A DNA stretch of 64,000 nt, taken from Octopus vulgaris. Lineage: Eukaryota. The position numbers were made by a program, and so were the translations under genes. The notes beneath the pieces were generated by a model. It ran no database searches, was not told where the DNA came from, and saw nothing but the letters and a program-made list of their open reading frames with translations. Positions 1 to 59,945 of the stretch are shown one piece after another (position 1 is the stretch's first letter; each line of letters begins with the position of its first letter). The stretch is from assembly GCA_951406725.2 (NCBI GenBank), contig OX597822.1, positions 62,744,001-62,808,000 on the forward strand, in the 5' to 3' direction.

Positions 1-9
1 ATATATATA

Positions 10-53
<44 letters not shown>

Positions 54-59
54 CATATA

Positions 60-112
<53 letters not shown>

Positions 113-114
<2 letters not shown>

Positions 115-255
115 GGGTTCATAAGTATCCTGTTTGTTACCATAGAATCGAGGCCTAGCACGCAGAGTAAAACTGCTTGACACAGATTGACAAGCATGTG
201 CACTAAGTTTTAACGTTCTAGTTCAGTTCCCCTATTTACAGTAGTAATTCGAATT
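113..255 (+). mobile_element. Left-end fragment of a mariner-like element (same family as 36618-37435); duplicated at ~6531-6700
   Basis: Follows (TA)n. Shares GCACGCAGAGTAAA and CACTAAGTTTTAACGTTCTAG with the ends of the mariner element at 36618-37435. Confidence 0.6.
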
Positions 256-325
256 GGGCTTTTGTGATTGTGTGTGTGTTTGTGTGTCTGTGTGTGTGCA
301 AGAATACACATATAAGAAAATATAC

Positions 326-690
326 AGGTATGCCTGTGTGGTAATGAAGCTTGTTTTCCCACAACATGATTTTGGCTAAGTGTCTCCTACTATATCTTCG
401 GGCGGACTGAACCCTTGTGAGTGGATTTGGTTAATGGAAACTTGAAAGCGCTTCGTATGTATAGATCCCTGTGTGTGTCTTTGTGTCCGTGTTTCTCCTC
501 CACTTGCACTTAACTGGTGCTGGTGTGTTTAAATCTCGGTAACTTAGTGTTTCTACATAAGTAACCAATAAAATAAGTACTGGATTTTAAAAAGTAATTC
601 GTATGTCGATTTGTTCGACTTAAACGCTTCAAGGCGGTGCCCCGGTACGTCCACAGTCAAATGAATGAAATAAAAGATAAAAGATATATA
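326..690 (+). mobile_element. SINE family A, degraded copy; duplicated at ~6765-7120
   Basis: Aligns by eye to the full copy at 61271-61670: GTGTGGTAA head, AAGTGTCT, TAAGTACT, GTCGATTTGTTCGACT, and a GATAAAA tail. Confidence 0.75.
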
Positions 691-730
691 TGAGAAGAGC
701 GGAAAAAAAACATCGATCGATCAATAGATA

Positions 731-1222: not shown

Positions 1223-1230
1223 CCCTTCCT

Positions 1231-1845
1231 TTGATATAACGTATATCTACAGTAAACTGTGAAATAAAATCAAAGTGTCTAATTTCTCTAGGAGAATATT
1301 TCTCCGAAGAATTTTTTAATGCATATGTTAATGGTTTATGGTCAGTGAATAAAGTAAATGACCTACCTTCAATTTTTCTGGAGATAATCTTCTCGGCTTA
1401 GAAAAACTCGGTGGTCCTTGTGTGGTGATGTGATGTTCTACCGAATGTGCACACGTGGTATTTAGAGCTAACTGTTTTGTGATTTTTGGATAATTTTTCA
1501 AAATCCTGTGATACCTATTTTTTGAGGACGCTATGAAATATAGCGGACTAATTGTTGCTCTCCTGCATCTCATTCCCTGAATCTTTAAGGAGGTTTGTGT
1601 GTCTATTATTTTTTGTTTGTTCACATCTACCATTAAATGATAGTGCGCCAAAAATCCGCTCCTAATATTGGATATGGTAAATCCGCTACTATGAAGATCC
1701 ATTTGTACTCTCTTCGTAAATTTATATCGAGCGTCAAGCCAAAACCTCCAAATGTTTGGATTTCAGACTGGTTCACCGCTTGAAGTGTCATATACACAGG
1801 TTTGGTTTTCTGTTTTAAGAGCCTTACAGGACATATCAAACACGC
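1231..1845 (-). pseudogene. Inverted duplicate of the Gypsy protease / RT-deletion junction / RNase H segment (2962-3570)
   Basis: Minus ORFs 1633..1857 and 1328..1702 nearly match the plus ORF 2734..3480 (YPILGADF, RRLSPEKLKV). Confidence 0.92.
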
Positions 1846-1866
1846 AGCCATTACCATTACCTACAC

Positions 1867-1876
1867 TGGTGACCCC
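1867..1876 (+). promoter_or_regulatory. Primer-binding site, copy 2 (tRNA-Trp), preceded by a short LTR 3' end (CTACA)
   Basis: Sequence CCTACA-C-TGGTGACCCC upstream of gag. Confidence 0.8.
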
Positions 1877-2021
1877 TCAAATACGCAGCCATTCATATAT
1901 ACTATGCAGCCAATAATAAGCATAAGTACGGAATTATTGACACAGAAGAAGCTGAAGAAGGAACCTTTTTTTTCTTTTTTTTTAAAAAGAAACAAAAACA
2001 AAATATATATTCACAAAAATA

Positions 2022-2810
2022 TTGGAGCAGGAAAAAAAAACACCCGAGACATCGTACTTCGACAGAAGTCACACACAAGCTTCTGTCAATGTACTGAATT
2101 GTCACCCGTGGACTGGAGACACACTAATTTGGTTGGCGCAACTAGAGGCAAGCTTTAAAGCCAACAGAATAACAAATGAGGAGCAGAAGTACAACATCAT
2201 GCTTAGTAATTTGCCTCCACCTCTAAGCAATGAAATCATAGATCTTTTACTGAACCCTATGGAGCCAGTTTTGTATTCTTCGATTAAAGAAGAAATATTG
2301 AAGCGTACGTCAAGTTCGAAGCAAAAAGAATTCGCAAAATTATTTAACAACGAAGAGCTGGGTAGTAGAAAGCCACACAGTTTCTACGAAGGATGAACGA
2401 ACTGCTGGGGATCAGCAAATAGAGGAATCATACCTCAAAGAGGTATTTTTCAATAAACCGCCGTACAAAACCCAAACTTTGCTCTCGGCCGTAAAAAAAC
2501 AGAATTCAATTCAGCAGTTGGCGGATCTCGCAGACGGTATTTTGGAGTTATCGTCTAGAGAAACTATTAGTGCGATTCCATCTATTTCAAGTGAAATACA
2601 AGAGTTTAAAAAATGTTACGAGAAACAATTCGACGTATTAACGAAGAAAATAGAGAGCTTACAACTTGAGAGAAACGGCCGCTCCGATCACCAAAATTAT
2701 ACAAGATAGCGCAGGAGATCAAAGAGCCCTAGCTTGAAAAGAAACACCATATGTTGGTATCACGCTAAATTCGGAGAAATTCTTTCAAATGCATCAAACC
2801 CTGTGCGTTT
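2022..2810 (+). pseudogene. gag: Gypsy gag (CsRn1-like clade), frameshifted
   Basis: WLAQLEASF...ITNEEQKY...LGSRKP capsid-like motifs. CWYHAKFG begins the CHCC-type knuckle typical of CsRn1-like gag. Several stops and frameshifts. Confidence 0.85.
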
Positions 2811-2859
2811 GATTTCCTTGCTAAAAGAAAAAGGGAAATTCGGAAAACTTCTAAACCAT

Positions 2860-4506
2860 AGATTGGAGGCGACGAAGTCTGTGGATAACATTATAAAAAG
2901 TCGCGTGTTTTTCATCTACGACCTGAACTCGAAAGAAAGATTTCTCGTGGATACAGGAGCAGCGTGTTCAATATGGCCTGTAAGGCTCTTAAAACAGAAA
3001 ACCAAACCTGTGTATATGATGCTTCAAGCGGTGAACCAGTCTGAAATCCAAACATTTGGAGAGATTAGCTTGACGCTCGATATAAATTTACGAAGAGAGT
3101 ACAAATGGATCTTCATAGTAGCGGATTTACCATATCCAATATTAGGAGCGGATTTTTTGGCGCACTATCATTTAACGGTAGATGTGAACAAACATAAATT
3201 AATAGACATACAAACCACCTTAAAGATTCAGGGAATGAGATGCAGGAGAGCAACAATTAGTCCGCTATATTTCATAGCGTCCTCAAAAAATAGGTATCAC
3301 AGGATTTTGAAAAATTATCCAAAAATCACAAAACAGTTAGCTCTAAATACCACGTGTGCACATTCGGTAGAACATCACATCACCACACAAGGACCACCGA
3401 GTTTTTCTAAGCCGAGAAGATTATCTCCAGAAAAATTGAAGGTAGGTCATTTACTTTATTCACTGACCATAAACCATTAACATATGCATTAAAAAATTCT
3501 TCGGAGAAATATTCTCCTAGAGAAATTAGATTTTATTTCACAGTTTACTGTAGATATACGTTATATCAAGGGGGTCGAAAATTCAGCAGCGGATGTACTT
3601 TCTAGAATGAATGTAGATGCATTAAACTCATTAAACACTATAAATTTGGAAGAAATGTCTAAGGATCAAGTTACGGATAAAGAATTTTCTTTATATAAAA
3701 ATTCCGATTCAACTGCTTTAAAATTTAAAATGTTGCCGATACATTGGTGTAATTCACATATTTGCTGTGATATTTCTACAGGTTTTTCGAGACCATTTGT
3801 GCCTGAAAAGCATAAGAAAAATGTTTTTTCTAGCCTACATAATTTATCTCATCCAGGTATAGAAGCTTCGTTAAAGTTATTATCAAGTCATTGTTTGGCC
3901 TGGCATGAATAAAGATATTCGTTCATGGGAAAATTCATGTATGCAATGTCAGAAATCTAAAGTGCAGCGGCACATCAAAGCACCATTAGGTACATTTGCA
4001 AATCCTGATGCGAGATTCCAACACATCCACATCGATATAGTGGGACCCTTACCTCCATGCGAGGATAATATGTATTTGTTGACGTGGGTCGATCGCTTTT
4101 CGAGATGTCCCGAGGCTTATCCGATTAAAGACGCATCTGCAGTAACTATAGCAAAAACTTTGTTTACCAATTGGATGTCTAAATTTGGCATTCCGAATAC
4201 ACTGACAACAGATCGTGTTAGACAATTTGAGTCTAGCTTGTTCGCAGAATTCAATAAATTGTTGGGGGATTAATATAATTCGTATAACTTCATATCACCC
4301 ACAGTCTAATAGAATGGTAGAAAGATTCCATAGACAGTTGAAAGCTTCATTAAGAACTTATTCCAATTCTAACGATTGCCTGGAGGCTTTGCCAGTGGTA
4401 TTGTTGGGAATTAGAAGTGCGGTTAAAGAAACTATACAGTATTCTCCGGCTGAACTTTTGTACGGAACAACATTAACTTTACCTACTCAAATGTTCGAAG
4501 AAAACA
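2860..4506 (+). pseudogene. pol: Gypsy pol: aspartic protease, RT deleted, RNase H C-terminus, truncated integrase
   Basis: Protease FLVDTGA and ILGADFL. RNase H FTLFTDHKPL...NSAADVLSR. Integrase HNLSHPG/CMQCQKSK zinc finger, HIDIVGPLP, VDRFSR and YHPQSNRMVERFHRQLK. No YxDD region. Confidence 0.92.
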
Positions 4507-5327
4507 ATACATACATATTTACTTGGTACCATCATATGGAGTGATGTAGTGGGATTACACACCCAGACACACTCACGAACAGGCGTGTTAATGTATATAA
4601 AAACAGCAAACTATAACCAGGGAACGTTCGATATGAAGCCAGATGCTACCACAATCATTGTCGTAGCCAAGACAACTGAAATTTTTAATAATTTCAGGAA
4701 TGATATTAAAAGGAACAAAGAGAAAACGTAAAACTGACAGTAAAATATTCACCATTAAAATTCATATCCTTATTGAATGGTTATCTGTTTAGCCTATTCC
4801 GAATTAACAAATATACGAGATGTAAAATTTAGGTCACTATGACAAAATTAATAATATAACAAAAGCAGCGAAGTTATTTTCATAGCAACAACTGTCCATA
4901 TCGAACGCGATCGCATTGTACAATTATTTTCTGTTATTGCTTCGGATAGACAAATATTTTGTGGATGGGTCTGTGCATTTGATAGACAAAGACTTTGATA
5001 AAGCCATTCGTTGCTTACCTATATAGATAGGCATACCTACAAAAGTGTGATTCCTATGGGAGTTTATTTCTTTGTAACTTTCAGAAAAATTAATTCTTTT
5101 TATTAAATGTTCGTACAAATATTTTAATTCTTTTGTTTCAGTCATTTCACTGCGGCGATTCTGGAGGACTGCCTTGAAGTGTTTTTGTCAAAGAATTCGA
5201 TTCGCGACTTATCTTTTAAACTTAGTACTTATTCTATCGGTCACATTGCCGAATCGATAAGTTATGGGGGCATAGCCAGATCAACACCCTTTGTCAAGCA
5301 ATAATGAGTGGACAAAGATACATACAC

Positions 5328-5405
<78 letters not shown>

Positions 5406-5601
5406 AGGCGCAATGGCCCAGTTGATAGGGCAACGGACTCGCGGTCTTAGGATCGCGGTTTCGATTCCGAGACCGATCGTTGTGAGAGTTTATTGAGCGA
5501 AAACACCTAAAGATCCACGAGACTCTAGCAGGTGGTAGTGTGGATCCTTGCAATACTCTTTCGCTACAACTTTATCGCAGTCCTTCTTCTGTTGGCCTGC
5601 T
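4507..5601 (+). repeat. Right part of tandem-duplication copy 1 (paralog ~7164-8040 plus ~8850-9125)
   Basis: ORFs 4549..4731 vs 7217..7399 and 4924..5145 vs 7586..7807 are near-identical, and the DNA is collinear. Confidence 0.92.
5127..5330 (-). mobile_element. SINE family A, 3' half; duplicated at ~7790-7990
   Basis: TTGTTTCAGTCATT and TAGTACTTATTCTATCGGT motifs, as in 30188-30573. Confidence 0.75.
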
Positions 5602-5745
5602 CGCTGAATATCCCCGAGAACTACGTTAAGGGTGCACGTATTTGTGGAATGCTCAGCCACTTACACGTTAATTTCACGGGCAGGCTGTTCCGTTGATTCG
5701 GATCAACCGGAACCCTCATCGTCGTAACCGACGGAGTGCTTCCCC
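5404..5745 (+). mobile_element. SINE family C (tRNA-derived head); paralog at 8945-9186
   Basis: GGAGGCGCAATGGCCCAGTTGATAG A-box-like and GGTTTCGATTCC B-box-like motifs. Head similar to 17536, 23225(-) and 52370(-). Confidence 0.8.
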
Positions 5746-6235: not shown

Positions 6236-6530
6236 CGTGTGTTCCTTTCCAACCTTCTACATATACATATTTATATACATATACATATATATACATACAT
6301 ATACATATATATGCATATATATATATATATACATATACATACATATATATATACATATATATATATACATATACGATATACATATATAGACATAGATATA
6401 TAAATATATACACATGTGTGTGTGTATATATATATATATGTATATATACATACATATGCCTATATATATATATTTATAATTATATATATATATACGTACA
6501 TATTCCTATATACGTATATATATATATATA
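6180..6530. repeat. (TA)n/(TACA)n microsatellite
   Basis: Directly visible. Confidence 0.95.
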
Positions 6531-7989
6531 CGGGTTCTAATTCATAAGTATCCTGTTTGTTACCATAGAATCAAGGCCTAGCACGCAGAGTAAAGCTGCT
6601 TGACACAGATTAACCTTGATCTCTTCCGTGCATGCGCACTAAGTTTTAACGTTCTAGTTCAGTTCCCCTATTTACAGTAGTACTTCGAATTAACATGTGC
6701 TGTTGGGCTTTTGTGAGTGTGTGTGTGTGCAAGAATATACATATAAGAAAATATACAGGTATGGCTGTGTGGTAATGAAGCTTGTTTTCCCACAACATGG
6801 TTTTGGCTAAGTGTCTCCTACTATATCCTCGAGCGGACTGAACCCTTGTGAGTGGATTTGGTTAATGGAAACTTGAAAGCGCTTCGTATGTATAGATCCC
6901 TGTGTGTGTGTCTTTGTGTCCGTGTTTCTCCTCCACTTGCACTTAACTGGTGCTGGTGTGTTTAAGTCTCGGTAACTCACTGTTTCTACAAAAGTGACCA
7001 ATAAAATAAGTACTGGATTTTAAAAAAGTAATTCGTATGTCGATTTGTTCGACTTAAACGCTTCAAGGCGGTGCCCCGGTACGCCCACAGTCAAATGAAT
7101 GAAATAAAAGATAAAAGATATATATGAGAAGAGCGAAACAAGAAAGATCGATCGATCAATAGATACATACATACATACATACACATTTACTTGATACCAT
7201 CTTATGGAGTGATGTAGTGGGATTACACACCCAGACACACTCACGAACGGGCGTGTTAATGTATATAAAAACAGCAAACTATAACCAGGGAACGTTCGAT
7301 ATGAAGCCAGATGCTACCACAATCATTGTCGTAGCCAGGGCAACTGAACTTTTTAATAATTTCAGGAACGATATTAAAAGGAACAAAGAGAAAACGTAAA
7401 ACTGACAGTAAAAATTCACCATTAGAATTAATATCCTTATTGAATGATTATTAGCCTATTCTGAATTAACAAATATACGAGATGTAAAATTTAGGTCACT
7501 ATGACAAAATTAATAATATAACAAAAGCAGCGAAGTTATTTTCATAACAACAACTGTCCATATCGAACGCGATCGCATTGTACAATTATTTTCTTTTATT
7601 GCTTCGGATAGACAAATATTTTGTGGGTGGGTCTGTGCATTTGATAGACAAAGACTTTGATAAAGCCATTCGTTGCTTACCTATATAGATAGGCATACCT
7701 ATAAAAGTGTGATTCCTATGGGAGTTTGTTTCTTTGTAACTTTCAGAAAAATTAATTCTTTTTATTAAATGTTCGTACAAATATTTTAATTCTTTTGTTT
7801 CAGTCATTTCACTGCGGCGATTATTGAGTACTGCCTTGAAGTGTTTTTGTCAAAGAATTCGATTCGCGACTTATCTTTTAAACTTAGTACTTATTCTATC
7901 GGTCACGTTGCCGTATCGATAAGTTATGGGGACGTAACCAGATCAACACCATTTGTCAAACAATAATGGGTGGACAAAGATACATACAC

Positions 7990-8056
<67 letters not shown>

Positions 8057-8150
8057 TTAGAGACAAAACCACTATTTTGCAAATCAAACAAAGAAAGACT
8101 TAATCCAATACATAAAAAAATTTAATATAAATTAAATTAAATTAAATTCG

Positions 8151-8196
8151 CCACTACAATTGTTTCGTGTCTCTTCAAAGGACATTCATCAGGTGA
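8151..8196 (-). ncRNA. Minimal type I hammerhead ribozyme (GUA cleavage triplet)
   Basis: Minus strand reads TCAC-CTGATGA-A-TGTC(ctttgaaga)GACA-C-GAAA-CAATTG-TA-GTGG: conserved core, stem II, palindromic stem III and stem I. Confidence 0.8.
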
Positions 8197-8618
8197 ATTT
8201 CAGATCTTCTATTCAATTTTAAGTTATGAAGTGAATTTAAAAGTCTAACTGTTACAGCTTTTACAAAATTACGTTACCATAGAAATAGAACATATTTTTA
8301 ATAAATTCTTTGCGCGTGATGAACGAACGTTATTTTAAAGATTATGAATGGAATAGAATGGAATATGTTAATCAACATAAATAGACTGAATTTACTACAA
8401 AATTCATTAATAAAACAATCATGATAAACGAAACCCATACATACATATATAATGATAAAACCTCCCTTTACCATACACAATAACAAACCTATATAGCAAT
8501 CCCCCTAATCTATACATTCACACACAAATACACACACATATAACACACATATAACACACACCCACAAACATATACATATACCCACTCATAACTTAAAATT
8601 GAATAGAAGATCTGAAAT

Positions 8619-8664
8619 CCACCTGATGAATGTCCTTTGAAGAGACACGAAACAATTGTTGTGG
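8619..8664 (+). ncRNA. Minimal type I hammerhead ribozyme (GUU triplet)
   Basis: CCAC-CTGATGA-A-TGTC(ctttgaaga)GACA-C-GAAA-CAATTG-TT-GTGG. CCAC/GTGG form stem I. Confidence 0.78.
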
Positions 8665-8847
8665 CGAATTTAATTTTATTTAATTTATATTAATTTTTTT
8701 TATGTATTGGATTAAGTCTTTCTTTGTTTGATTTGCAAAATAGTGGTTTTGTCTCTAATTAATATTATATAATATTTTACTATAAAATTGGATTCAATCC
8801 TAAATCTGATTTTTCCCTGTAAATTTCGATTTATTCCCTAATATTAT

Positions 8848-8946
<99 letters not shown>

Positions 8947-9184
8947 AGGCGCAATGGCCCAGTTGATAGGGCAGCGGACTCGCGGTCTTAGGATCGCGGT
9001 TTCGAGTGTTTATTGAGCGAAGACACCTAAAGATCCACGAGACTCTAGCAGGTGGTAGTGTGGATCCTTGCAATGCTCTTTCGCCACAACTTTATCGCAG
9101 TCCTTCTTCTGTTGGCCTGCTCACTTAGCCAGCCCAGCGGGGTGGCGTCATCTGAAGGCTATAACAATGCGAAGCGCATTGTGA

Positions 9185-24128: not shown

Positions 24129-25253
24129 GAGGGGTTGGACAAAATAATGGAAACAGCTTAAAATTTGAAACATTTATTTCAATATGGGGTACGACCGCCT
24201 TTGGCAGTAATTACAGCTTGAATTCTACGAGGTATGGACTCGCACTAAGTTTGAATTGTTTTCAAAGGAATTTTTGTCCATTCTTTAGCTAAAACAGTCT
24301 CCAGTTCTTGTAGTGATGATGATGGAGGATATCAATTCCTTACTTGTTTTTTTTCTAAAATGCACCATAAATGTTCAATAATATTGGGATCTGGGGGCTG
24401 AGGTATCTAGATAAGATGTTCAACTTCACTAGAATGTTCTTCGTGTCATTCAGTAACATCTTTAGCTGTGTGAATTGGTGCATTATCATCCTGAAAGATT
24501 GCGTTTTCTTCCGGAATTTGATCAAATAAAATGCTTAAATAGACCTGACTATTAATTCTGCCATGAAGGGAAACAAATGGGCCGACGGATTTCCAAGATA
24601 TAGCACCCCCCCCCCCCGATCATCACAGATCCTCCTCCATGTTTAACTGGCCGGTGGTCGGAAATAAGGTGCCAATTATGTAGGTTTTTACTCCATTCTA
24701 AACGCTTGGTAACATTTGTTTTTGAAAGTAGTGGCTTTCTGATTGCACCCCTCCCGTGAAATCCGACTTTGTGCAGCTCCCGACGAACTGTTTTTGTGGA
24801 AACTGTGTTCTCGAGGTGGTCATTAAGCTCTGCAGTAACTTTGGGAGCAGTACTTTCGTGATCCTTTCTAACAATTCGTGTAAGTGTCCGACGGAGTGTT
24901 GTTTCAACGAGGAGGTTTTTCCCCTCTTTCTCAAAGGCAGTCATTACTTTCGAGACAGTACTTCTTGAGACACCAAACATTTCGGCTATTTTCGTTGCGC
25001 TAACGCCTGCCATACGAGCACCAACAATTTGAACTCTTTGAAAGTCCGATAGATCTGTCATTCTAATGAATTTTAATTACCTATTTTCTGATGATATCTG
25101 AAAAGAAACAGCAATTTTAGCAAAACATATCAAGCAACACTAACAACAAATAAAGAAAAACATTAAAATAAAGAAGCTTTTGACGGCTTTAAAGCTACTT
25201 CAAAATTATGATGGTATGATGCTAGGTGTTTCCATTATTTTGTCCAACCACTT
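24129..25253 (-). mobile_element. Tc1-family DNA transposon with a disrupted transposase
   Basis: ~30-bp TIRs (GGGGTTGGACAAAATAATGGAAACA / TGTTTCCATTATTTTGTCCAACC) with TA on both flanks. Minus ORF from 25061 encodes a paired-like HTH and VKHGGGSVM, then FQDDNAPIH and PDPNIIEHLW in other frames. Confidence 0.92.
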
Positions 25254-33371: not shown

Positions 33372-34037
33372 AAGGTAATATTGCGTCGAGTAATCACTGA
33401 TGTCTATGTCTGTTCATGAAAAGAAATCGCTCTATCTTAAAGTGACGACATTTAAGTTGGCGACGATTTAAGTCAACGGCAATAAATCAAGATAAACAAC
33501 GTAATCGAGATTAAAGATAAAGAAATTGAGGAAGATGATGGCGAGTTTGAGATCGGCTTCGATAAGATATTGGTTGGAACATGACGAATCTAAGGAGGAA
33601 ACCCTTTGTGTCGTTAAACATTATAATACAATGAAAACAGCTAGCCGGAAGACAAGTACAAATAGAAGTCACAGCGAGTATGTAACACATTTAAAATGGA
33701 GAGAAATTGGAATGCATTATAATGTTTATATTTCAATAAACCGAAAGTTTCCGTTGAAACATCAAATTTCATGCACCCTGCAAACCTTTTTCCGTGTGTA
33801 TATGTTTGTGTGTGTGTGAGAGTATGCATGTATTTATAATATACACACACACGCGTGGATTGCACGTTTCTCTTAACTATAATCTGAATCCACATGAATA
33901 GTGTATCGAGAATTCAGCCCACAGAAGACTAAACTATATATTATATGATTTAGTCTACTCAGCGCTGAATTCTCTCTCGATACACGCTTCATGTTGCTTC
34001 AGATTACAGTACCGAAAAACGTGTGGTCGACGCGCGC

Positions 34038-35520
<1,483 letters not shown>

Positions 35521-35827
35521 TGCTTATTTACATACAGCTCTAAGCTTATTGGAATGTAATGTTTTAAAGATCAGTCAAATTTTTCTCTGTTATAGATGTG
35601 TCATATACTTCCTGAGTCATTCTATTGTACATGACTTCGCATTGACTATTATTTTTGTGTAATTATTTATTTTTGTAATTGTATGTCACATTTTCCCCAT
35701 AAATTCTTCAATATCAAAATAAATTTGCCATCGTCACCCCGCAGTTCCGTTTTCTTCAGACTCGACTACGTTGTTGTATATTTTGACTTTATGTAATTCA
35801 ACTTTACATTTTGTCATCATCATTATC

Positions 35828-57959: not shown

Positions 57960-59945
57960 ACACAAAATTGATGCAGAAACATTCGCTAAAGCAATAAGCA
58001 AACTACAGAATAAGAAGGCACCTGGAAGGGACCTAATAGTTGGATATTATTACAAGAAGCTGACATTTTATAGAAACCAATTGATATATATGTTCAAAAG
58101 GACTATGGACGGTTAGACTGATATACCAAATTGGCTTGCTACAGCAAGGACAAATCTTGTTGCCAAAAATGAAATCACCGAGAGACAGGAAACTACAGGA
58201 AACTGTACACAAGTGCCTACATCTGGCAAAGGTACCTACTACCTTAATTGCTGCTATAGAGAAACTCACAAAGATATAGACAACTATTTCTACCCTTACA
58301 ACTGAGAACAGAATAATTTTTTCTAATAGTATAGGCATTGCAAAGGGACTATCTCCCTGTACGTCTTTACATTTTGGCAGTGAATCCATTATATTTCCTA
58401 CTGCAAAAGACAAATGGTTATATACGAGGATCTTCAACTGCCAGAAATATCAATGTAACTCATTTTTTTGTAGATGACCTGAAGATTTATGATAAAAGTG
58501 TTAACAATGCCAAAAAACAACTAGAATTAATTACATTTTCAGCTGATATAGGCATGGAATTTGGCCAAAAGGAATGTTCATATCTGTTTATAGAACGAGG
58601 AAAGTCAGTTCCCAAACCCAAATTCTGTGCATCAACCTTCTCTCTATCTCACCCATTCCACACAAAGAATGTTACAAGTACCTAGGCATAGACGAAAACG
58701 TATCATTTGAAGGCACTGTGAATAAAAATAGAGTGAGCCGAGAATATTACACCAGACTTAGGAAAATATGGCAGTCGGAACTCTCCTCTTACAACAGAAC
58801 AGTATCCCACAATACATTTGCAGTACCAGTGCTGATCCCAACACTTGTGATACTTAATTGGTCTGTAGAGGAAATCCACTCCATATATATCAAAACCCGC
58901 AAAATCCTGACAACTGGGAACTTCCACAGAAATACCGATTTCTACCTTAGAAGAAATGAAGGTGGTAGAAGCCTGATATCAGTGCAGACTGCCTTCGAGT
59001 GCCGTATGACATCAATCACGCAGCACCAGCTAAGCAGCATCAGCAAAAATAAATATATTAATGCAGTCCTGAAAAGTGAAGTGAGCAACGTTGTACACGT
59101 TGGCAGTGAACTCAAGAAACACTCACTTCCAGATGATCTCCTATACAGCCCCAAAACAGCTGGGCTCGCTTACCTCAGAGAAGACCTGAATGGAAAGTAC
59201 TCAGCAAAAAACAAAGACCATGCATGGGTATGTTGCCCAGAAGCTTGAAGAAGACAGTAGAATTGACACGAAGCGCAGCCTCTTGAGCACAAGACATTAC
59301 ATCTCACTTTGCAGGCTATGCGTTTGCAATCCAGAAGCAGGAAATTACCACGAAATACCTGGTGAACAAGAGAGACAGTGACGCTTGTAATACCAAGGTG
59401 CAACCGCATGTGTAGGCTATGCCAGGTTTCTGTGGAAGACATTACGCATGTGACCAGCAGCTGTCCTAAAATGTCGTCACGGTACTACCTCCCTATGAGG
59501 CAAGATGTTGTTGCTAAAACAATTTAGAATGCTATCCGCAAAAAAGACTGTCCTGAAATAAACTTAGAAAATCCCTCTGTTATGGAATACATTCATAAAT
59601 ACCAATTCAAGGAATACTAGTGGAATATTCCCATAAAAACTTCGGTCAAATTTAAGCATACCAGGACGGATATCGTTGTTTGAGACGGAAGTGCAAAGGA
59701 ATGTACCATTATAGAGGTTAGCTGCCCTGCAGATATAAATATCTCTTTGAAAATCAAAGGAAAAGAGGGTATCTACGAGTAACTCCTTTGAAACCTTCAG
59801 CTTCTATATCCAGACTATGAATTCATATTCATACCAATAATAATTGGAGCACTAGGTTTTGTTAGTAAATGCTTAAAGGAGAATCTTACAGTGGGATTTT
59901 CAGAAAGATAAACTGACCGGCTGATTCGTACATTAAAATTCCAAA
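57960..59945 (+). pseudogene. R4/Dong-clade non-LTR retrotransposon remnant (RT, CCHC finger, restriction-like endonuclease)
   Basis: KAPGRD, ILAVNPL, HFFVDDLKIY, YKYLG, RNEGGRSL, QEITTKYL, CRLCQVSVEDITHVTSSCPKMSSRYYLPMR, and TDIVV..TIIEVSCPAD. Has frameshifts and an internal deletion. Confidence 0.88.

What the first reader, a model, noticed from the sequence alone, without database searches (positions are those of the whole stretch)
8046..8850. TA-targeted fold-back element carrying two opposed minimal hammerhead ribozymes
Seen: ~184-bp inverted arms, each containing a full hammerhead core (CTGATGA, TGTC/GACA stem II, GAAA, palindromic CAATTG stem III, CAC/GTG stem I). The minus copy has a GUA triplet and the plus copy GUU. 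The element sits in a (TA)n tract and is missing from the paralogous tract at ~5335-5360, so it inserted as a unit. Known: Penelope-like elements carry minimal type I hammerheads in their terminal repeats, often show an inverted partial terminal repeat, and palindromic stem III allows dimeric cleavage. Inference: this is a non-coding, ribozyme-bearing PLE derivative or retrozyme-like family. A transcript from either strand holds one ribozyme plus its own antisense, so cleavage and hairpin formation would compete.
Basis: partly seen in the sequence, partly recalled or inferred. Interest (0 to 1): 0.75.

Follow-up and report, generated by a model that had tools for sequence, protein, structure and literature searches.

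The report
Spliced Penelope ends inserted head-to-head
This hairpin with two ribozyme motifs is two copies of the end of a Penelope-type jumping gene joined head to head in a TA repeat, and both copies have precisely lost an intron, so it is likely a dead by-product copied from the element's spliced message, which would show which RNA strand these elements copy.

Summary
In detail: 184-bp inverted arms (180/184 identical), each with a minimal type I hammerhead, sit in a (TA)n tract that is empty in the paralogue. The interpretation needs changing. Arms and spacer are the terminal repeat (pLTR) and upstream promoter region of a coding Penelope-like element of the Hydra clade (RT plus C-terminal GIY-YIG; full ORFs elsewhere in the genome). 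Opposed hammerheads from inverted 5'-truncated copies are already described. The plus-strand GUU is a private mutation. What is not ordinary: both arms carry the exact exon junction of a 1,062-nt GT-AG intron that the parent keeps. Such spliced copies are common (52, 308 and 50 exact junction matches in three subfamilies), nearly all stop at an initiator 27 nt before the junction, and 29 of 30 head-to-head pairs carry exactly one 'tail'. So the template is likely sense, uncleaved, often spliced RNA, primed at two sites; spliced copies lose the promoter region and would be dead ends. This argues against the antisense-template idea for PLE intron retention. Not a retrozyme or MITE; cleavage and expression are untested.

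The parts
7994..8049 (.). (TA)n target tract, left; the element's left end is ambiguous inside it, no TSD can be read
   Evidence: empty paralogue
8046..8205 (-). Left arm, pLTR exon 2, ending at the short (tail-less) 3' end
   Evidence: 160/162 identical to unspliced parent L067:8436-8597
8151..8196 (-). Minimal type I hammerhead, GUA, predicted cut after 8155; private C>U in stem I at 8196
8206..8232 (-). Left arm exon 1 (27 nt); exon junction 8206|8205 where the parent has a 1,062-nt GT-AG intron; 8232 is the A of the initiator-like TCACT, inferred transcription start
8233..8588 (-). 'Spacer': parent sequence upstream of the inferred start site (3' UTR / likely promoter region), present because this arm was copied from a read-through transcript
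   Evidence: 94-98% to parent copies
8586..8588 (.). 3-nt microhomology at the head-to-head junction of the two arms
8586..8609 (+). Right arm exon 1 (24 nt); exon junction 8609|8610
8610..8775 (+). Right arm, pLTR exon 2
8619..8664 (+). Minimal type I hammerhead, GUU (private A>U at 8660; family has GUA)
   Evidence: 173 of 175 arms GUA, 1 GUU
8776..8850 (+). PLE 'tail' (~75 nt), present on one arm only; in full-length copies it runs on into the ORF start
8846..8864 (.). (TA)n target tract, right, followed by host (TG)n
5333..5360 (.). Empty paralogous (TA)n site

Best explanation
The element is two 5'-truncated copies of the terminal repeat of a coding Hydra-clade Penelope-like retrotransposon joined head to head in a (TA)n tract, both lacking the parent's intron exactly, and was likely made when the element's RT-endonuclease cut both strands of the TA target and copied one spliced, uncleaved sense RNA from two start sites. 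Shown: parentage, exact splice junctions, one tail per insertion, TA target, 5' ends of spliced copies stopping at an initiator-like site. Inferred: the cut on both strands, two priming events (one at the tail end, one about 75 nt upstream), joining of the two cDNA ends by 3-nt microhomology, and that this copy's long left arm came from a read-through transcript. The two hammerheads are passengers of the pLTR; in the parent the motif is under selection and would cleave only weakly, as a dimer or with protein help. Spliced copies lack the promoter region or the intron overlapping it and would be dead ends, so only unspliced read-through RNA would seed new active elements, which would explain why propagating PLEs keep their intron.
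For: Parent: copies matching the spacer run upstream into a GIY-YIG ORF and RT in the same sense as the hammerhead (L070, L079, L080); L088 links the window's own ribozyme variant to the endonuclease ORF; full 820-860-aa ORFs flanked by related pLTRs; the AlphaFold model's best PDB matches are telomerase RTs, E 6e-10; Hydra motifs present. Splicing: donor AG|GTATGT and acceptor TTTTTAG| in all 20 wide parent loci L061-L080 (one donor variant GA), window arms have the exact junction. Exact junction matches: 52 spliced vs 31 unspliced in this subfamily (patterns 29 and 27 nt), 308 and 50 spliced in two other subfamilies, one using its own donor; the same haplotypes hold both forms. A second donor about 200 nt after the stop codon is joined to the same acceptor in 3 of 19 parsed top endonuclease hits. 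In 65 insertions picked by the ribozyme pattern alone: 49 spliced, 20 unspliced, 6 unclear arms; exon 1 in spliced arms is 8-28 nt, one 35, with 8 at exactly 27; 29 of 30 simple pairs carry exactly one tail; pairs agree in splice state, 9 spliced/spliced, 3 unspliced/unspliced, 0 mixed (all loci 21, 11, and 1 mixed that is two subfamilies 6.3 kb apart); the tail-less arm is the longer one in about half of pairs (16 vs 16, counted by eye); 93 of 100 3' ends abut (TA)4+, background 5.9%. In vitro, a PLE protein cuts and extends both strands, starts RT at two internal sites bounding the tail, and uses uncleaved RNA (PMC11167929).
Against: No RNA evidence of expression, start site or cleavage. The start site is inferred from DNA ends only. 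Genomic data cannot separate double priming from fold-back of the first cDNA followed by trimming. No intact full-length ORF copy with the window's exact ribozyme variant was found (0 of 30 loci with a pLTR-ORF-start junction; nearest copies are truncated); intact ORFs belong to sister subfamilies about 80-90% identical in the pLTR. Pfam gives no RT or GIY-YIG hit for the ORF and no tree was built. The window's left arm, running 356 nt past the start site, is atypical (0 of 49 sampled spliced arms). The sample of 65 covers 70 of 133 pattern matches and left out loci fetched earlier; windows of about 1.5 kb can miss distant partner arms. Hammerhead monomers do not fold into the ribozyme shape as their minimum.
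Confidence: 0.8

Rival explanations
1. Same origin from spliced sense RNA, but the second arm is made by the first cDNA folding back on itself at a microhomology and being copied, then trimmed by the endonuclease at the TA-like short end.
For: Arms agree in splice state; junctions show short microhomologies; the short end itself looks like a TA target; the tail was earlier read as a product of endonuclease resolution (PMC8557442 passages).
Against: In about half of pairs, and in the window, the tail-less arm is longer at its 5' end than the tailed arm, so neither arm contains the other; this needs trimming on either strand. Single insertions end at either site about equally (16 tail, 15 short), as two RT start sites predict (PMC11167929).
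Confidence: 0.25
2. A non-autonomous, ribozyme-bearing family (retrozyme- or SINE-like) that arose once from a spliced copy and now spreads on its own RNA.
For: Hundreds of short copies of similar length; animal retrozymes derive from PLE pLTRs (bioRxiv 10.64898/2026.07.22.740005).
Against: Spliced forms recur in at least three subfamilies, each matching its own unspliced parent and one with a different donor; arm lengths and junctions differ at every locus; no tandem monomers bounded by ribozymes; the window's spacer was found contiguous with the pLTR in none of the 30 spacer hits but itself.
Confidence: 0.06
3. A DNA fold-back transposon or MITE with TA target duplication that happens to carry ribozymes.
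For: Long terminal inverted repeats, TA flanks, empty paralogous site.
Against: Exact intron removal shows an RNA step; ends are asymmetric (tail on one side); homology is to an RT element, not a transposase.
Confidence: 0.02
4. A functional host RNA switch in which self-cleavage competes with the long hairpin.
For: Both cores are intact; any read-through transcript would form a 184-bp duplex, -310 kcal/mol, z -32.
Against: The copy is young (arms 98% identical), absent from the paralogue, each ribozyme has a private mutation, and the duplex would bury both motifs; the ribozyme fold alone is worth only -0.4 to -2 kcal/mol.
Confidence: 0.03

Closest known systems
Hydra clade of C-terminal EN+ Penelope-like elements (Craig et al. 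2021, PMC8557442; passages, supplement part 2 and searched rows seen)
   Same: DKT, CxCX5C linker, CxxC and CxH around E/N, no CCHH, (TA)n target, hammerhead in the pLTR; listed Hydra ribozymes often also lack G10.1-C11.1; Penelope-13_HM is listed with a 5'-truncated inverted copy and a ribozyme on each strand.
   Different: Not the listed Hydra-1_Obim (different ribozyme and protein). Unit is about 6-7 kb with a 2.6-4-kb intron-containing 3' UTR and an asparagine-rich insert, against 'generally <3 kb'; tail about 75 nt against 30-40; RWK reads KWK; spliced genomic copies are not mentioned in what I saw.
Minimal hammerheads of metazoan PLEs (Cervera and De la Pena 2014, PMC4209133; parts 1-2 of 4 read)
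   Same: Minimal type I motif with palindromic stem III; the paper reports dual motifs 100-700 bp apart on opposite strands, attributed to truncated PLEs, and an intron ending just 5' of helix I in D. virilis.
   Different: The G10.1-C11.1 pair that paper calls highly conserved is absent; here the opposed pair is traced to spliced RNA.
Penelope of Drosophila virilis and Adineta vaga Pen families (PMC2377424 passages; PMC3846280 passages and whole Discussion)
   Same: Start site, initiator TCACT and 5'-UTR intron inside the pLTR; head-to-head inverted pLTR with optional tail.
   Different: These are described as keeping introns on retrotransposition, with an antisense template proposed; here most short copies are precisely spliced, which needs a sense template.
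PAc of Anolis in vitro (PMC11167929; parts 1-2 of 4 read)
   Same: Two RT start sites bounding the tail, both strands cut and extended, uncleaved RNA as substrate fit the genomic pattern here.
   Different: Poseidon clade; inverted products and splicing were not addressed in the parts read.
Non-LTR retrozymes (bioRxiv 10.64898/2026.07.22.740005; part 1 of 5 read)
   Same: Non-coding, type I hammerhead, PLE pLTR origin.
   Different: Retrozymes are tandem direct repeats with at least two consecutive ribozymes; this is an inverted, locus-specific structure.

Membership tests
EN+ Penelope-like elements | Single ORF with telomerase-like RT and GIY-YIG endonuclease in the parent | tested here: met
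   841-aa ORF with RT motifs and YIG; model matches telomerase RTs best; Pfam silent
EN+ Penelope-like elements | pLTRs in partial tandems, inverted 5'-truncated copy, tail at one end | tested here: met
   tail is about 75 nt
EN+ Penelope-like elements | Hammerhead motif in the pLTR | tested here: met
EN+ Penelope-like elements | Intron retained through retrotransposition | tested here: not met
   Not met for this copy and most short copies (49 of 75 arms reaching the junction spliced); met for 22 of 23 ribozyme-bearing pLTRs in front of an ORF start, 1 spliced from the second donor. A described tendency, not a criterion of the class.
Hydra clade | DKT, CxCX5C linker, CxxC and CxH, no CCHH, C-terminal EN | tested here: met
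Hydra clade | N-terminal RWK motif | tested here: inconclusive
   KWK in P0002; RWK or RWR in most homologues
Hydra clade | (TA)n insertion preference | tested here: met
   93 of 100 ends vs 5.9% background
Hydra clade | Placement in an RT tree with reference Hydra proteins | not tested
   Only by-eye comparison with supplement alignments
Minimal type I hammerhead | Conserved core, stems I and II, palindromic stem III, NUH | tested here: met
   Core 99% vs N7 78%, loop II 77%, flanks 86% and 93% over 175 arms; CAAUUG/CGAUCG covariation; many arms were chosen by an exact ribozyme pattern, which inflates all values
Minimal type I hammerhead | G10.1-C11.1 pair | tested here: not met
   A.C here; A/U, U/A, A/G, A/A in sister subfamilies; also absent in many listed Hydra ribozymes
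Minimal type I hammerhead | Self-cleavage | not testable with these tools
   needs in vitro assay
Non-LTR retrozyme | Tandem direct monomers, each with a ribozyme | tested here: not met
   inverted, variable structures
MITE / fold-back DNA transposon | Fixed symmetric TIRs, no RNA step | tested here: not met
   asymmetric ends, exact splice junctions

The most novel reading that the evidence does not exclude
Penelope-like elements do not avoid spliced RNA: they copy sense, spliced, uncleaved transcripts in bulk from two internal start sites on both strands of one cut, littering the genome with promoter-less hairpins whose ends map the start site. Intron retention in active PLEs is then survivorship, and the antisense-template model is wrong, at least for the Hydra clade.
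Probability: 0.6. Interest if true: 0.7.

Novelty: new variant of a known kind. Interest (0 to 1): 0.5.

Why it matters
How PLEs make head-to-head inverted ends and why they keep introns are stated open questions (PMC8557442: significance of intron retention unknown; PMC3846280: antisense versus unspliced sense template undecided). Hundreds of precisely spliced genomic copies, with splice state matched between arms and one tail per insertion, give a direct genomic read-out of template strand, start site and priming sites, and a family with intact ORFs on which to test it. The two opposed ribozymes themselves are already described and are not the news.

Tried and rejected
Rfam scan: no hammerhead model hit at E<=10. 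Pfam on the ORF and seven homologues: nothing useful; PDB sequence search empty. First unspliced-junction pattern had one T too many and gave 0; corrected. Sequencing runs: no RNA holder listed. No intact master of the window's exact subfamily found. No copy was seen to begin at the ribozyme cut site in the listings, but this was not counted formally. One apparent spliced/unspliced pair (L069) was dropped because its arms are different subfamilies 6.3 kb apart; five duplicate loci were dropped from the 70 before counting. My first idea that ORF-bearing copies are never spliced was wrong. Literature searches for spliced or intron-less PLE copies and for cephalopod PLE ribozymes (passages of PMC13282606) found no such report; subscription papers, Repbase entries, Arkhipova 2003 and Luense 2017 (recalled, not read) and unseen supplements may hold one. 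PMC6765202 was seen as passages only. Host looks like an octopus (recalled SINE, genome size; not tested).

Full report
Observation. The arms 8046-8229 and 8586-8769 are reverse complements with 4 differences in 184 nt. The duplicated block at 4507-5605 has only the bare (TA)n(TG)n tract. A 35-nt ribozyme pattern has 133 exact matches genome-wide and the reversed control none. Rfam does not detect the motif.

Parent. A search with the arm gave 63 matches among 40 scored of 1,023 candidates, many as abutting inverted pairs of varying length. A search with the spacer gave longer copies in which it lies about 1.1 kb upstream of the ribozyme-bearing repeat. Following these upstream reached a GIY-YIG-type ORF and an RT in the same sense as the ribozyme; the endonuclease has at least 152 matches, several in open frames of 820-860 aa flanked by direct and inverted repeats of the same family. 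L088 joins the window's own ribozyme variant to the endonuclease ORF. Pfam is silent, but the alignment with 12 homologues shows RT motifs and the predicted structure (mean pLDDT 77) matches telomerase RTs best. DKT, CxCX5C, CxxC, CxH and no CCHH are the stated marks of the Hydra clade (PMC8557442). It is not the published Hydra-1_Obim.

Ribozyme. Over 175 arms the 11 core positions are 99% conserved, against 78% for N7, 77% for loop II and 86% and 93% for the flanks; stem II is nearly fixed and the stem III palindrome changes from CAAUUG to CGAUCG in one subfamily. Many arms were chosen by an exact pattern, so the contrast between subfamilies carries the weight. GUA is the family state (173 of 175); the plus arm's GUU occurs once. 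Position 10.1-11.1 is never G-C, as in many listed Hydra ribozymes. Monomers do not favour the ribozyme fold and the whole element folds as one duplex of -310 kcal/mol. Dual motifs on opposite strands 100-700 bp apart were already reported and ascribed to truncated PLEs (PMC4209133), and Penelope-13_HM is tabulated with one on each strand.

Splicing. The 1.1 kb missing from the window's left arm is bounded by a GT donor and a T-rich AG acceptor in the parent copies, and both arms carry the exact exon junction. Exact matches number 52 spliced and 31 unspliced in this subfamily, 308 spliced in the subfamily with intact ORFs, which uses its own donor, and 50 in a third. Shared haplotypes hold both forms, so spliced copies arise repeatedly and are not one lineage. 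A second donor about 200 nt after the stop codon is joined to the same acceptor in 3 of the 19 parsed top endonuclease hits, removing the whole promoter region. Of 23 ribozyme-bearing repeats in front of an ORF start, 22 keep the intron end and 1 shows this second splice; 5 more loci were truncated and 2 not parsed.

Geometry. In 65 insertions picked by the ribozyme pattern (70 of 133 matches, 5 duplicates dropped, earlier-fetched loci not included) 49 arms are spliced, 20 unspliced, 6 unclear. Spliced arms keep 8-28 nt of exon 1, one 35, with 8 at exactly 27, the A of TCACT; the same initiator-like word is described in a rotifer pLTR and Drosophila Penelope starts 46 nt before its intron. 29 of 30 simple pairs carry exactly one tail, and singles split 16 with and 15 without. 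Arms agree in splice state (9 and 3 pairs, none mixed; by my arithmetic about 0.002 if templates were independent, with the caveat of short windows). Either arm can be the longer. 93 of 100 ends abut (TA)n. The window copy is unusual in that its tail-less arm runs 356 nt past the inferred start, so it likely came from a read-through transcript; its arms meet at a 3-nt microhomology.

Mechanism. Most likely the RT-endonuclease binds a sense transcript near the repeat, cuts both strands of a TA tract, primes at two sites about 75 nt apart, and the two cDNAs, each stopping at or before the RNA's 5' end, are joined head to head. This matches the in vitro behaviour of the lizard element (PMC11167929), including use of uncleaved RNA, since the inserted ribozymes are whole. 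Fold-back of the first cDNA with trimming is the main rival and cannot be excluded. Both need a sense template, against the antisense proposal in PMC3846280. Spliced products lack the upstream promoter region or the intron and would not propagate, in line with the selective argument in PMC2377424.

Novelty. The element is a product of a known kind of retrotransposon and the opposed ribozymes are known. My searches found no report of spliced PLE copies in genomes; closed-access papers and Repbase notes were not searchable. An earlier agent report on another genome reached the same reading; I saw it after forming mine, could not check it, and count it only as a hint that the pattern is general. 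Expression, start site and cleavage are untested.

Noticed in passing
window 1228-4273: Broken LTR-retroelement remnant: DUF7041, integrase zinc-binding and core domains; 1228-1848 is an inverted 96% copy of 2959-3572.
   Followed up: partly
window 24552-25076 (-): Tc1/mariner-type transposase fragment (HTH_Tnp_Tc3_2).
   Followed up: partly
window 58547-59248 (+): 233-aa frame that looks like the C-terminal part of a non-LTR RT (recalled resemblance; no Pfam hit).
   Followed up: no
window 3-730 / 6404-7165 and 4507-5605 / 7175-9125: Local duplications at 89-96% identity; the second gives the empty site.
   Followed up: partly
window 33900-35570: About 1.6 kb of degenerate (TA/CA)n microsatellite.
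   Followed up: no
L111:2422-4947 (P0002 residues 491-603): Asparagine-rich insert between RT thumb and linker that keeps the frame, like those described in rotifer Penelopes.
   Followed up: no
L072, L106, L111 3' UTRs: The promoter-exon 1-intron block is tandemly duplicated inside the 3' UTR of some subfamilies.
   Followed up: no
L111 exon 1 donor: One subfamily has lost the upstream GT donor used by its sister and keeps only the next one, so donor use has shifted between subfamilies.
   Followed up: no
L080:107-1030, L075:5234: Fragments of other, unrelated Penelope-like RT/EN frames beside family copies (identity by eye only).
   Followed up: no
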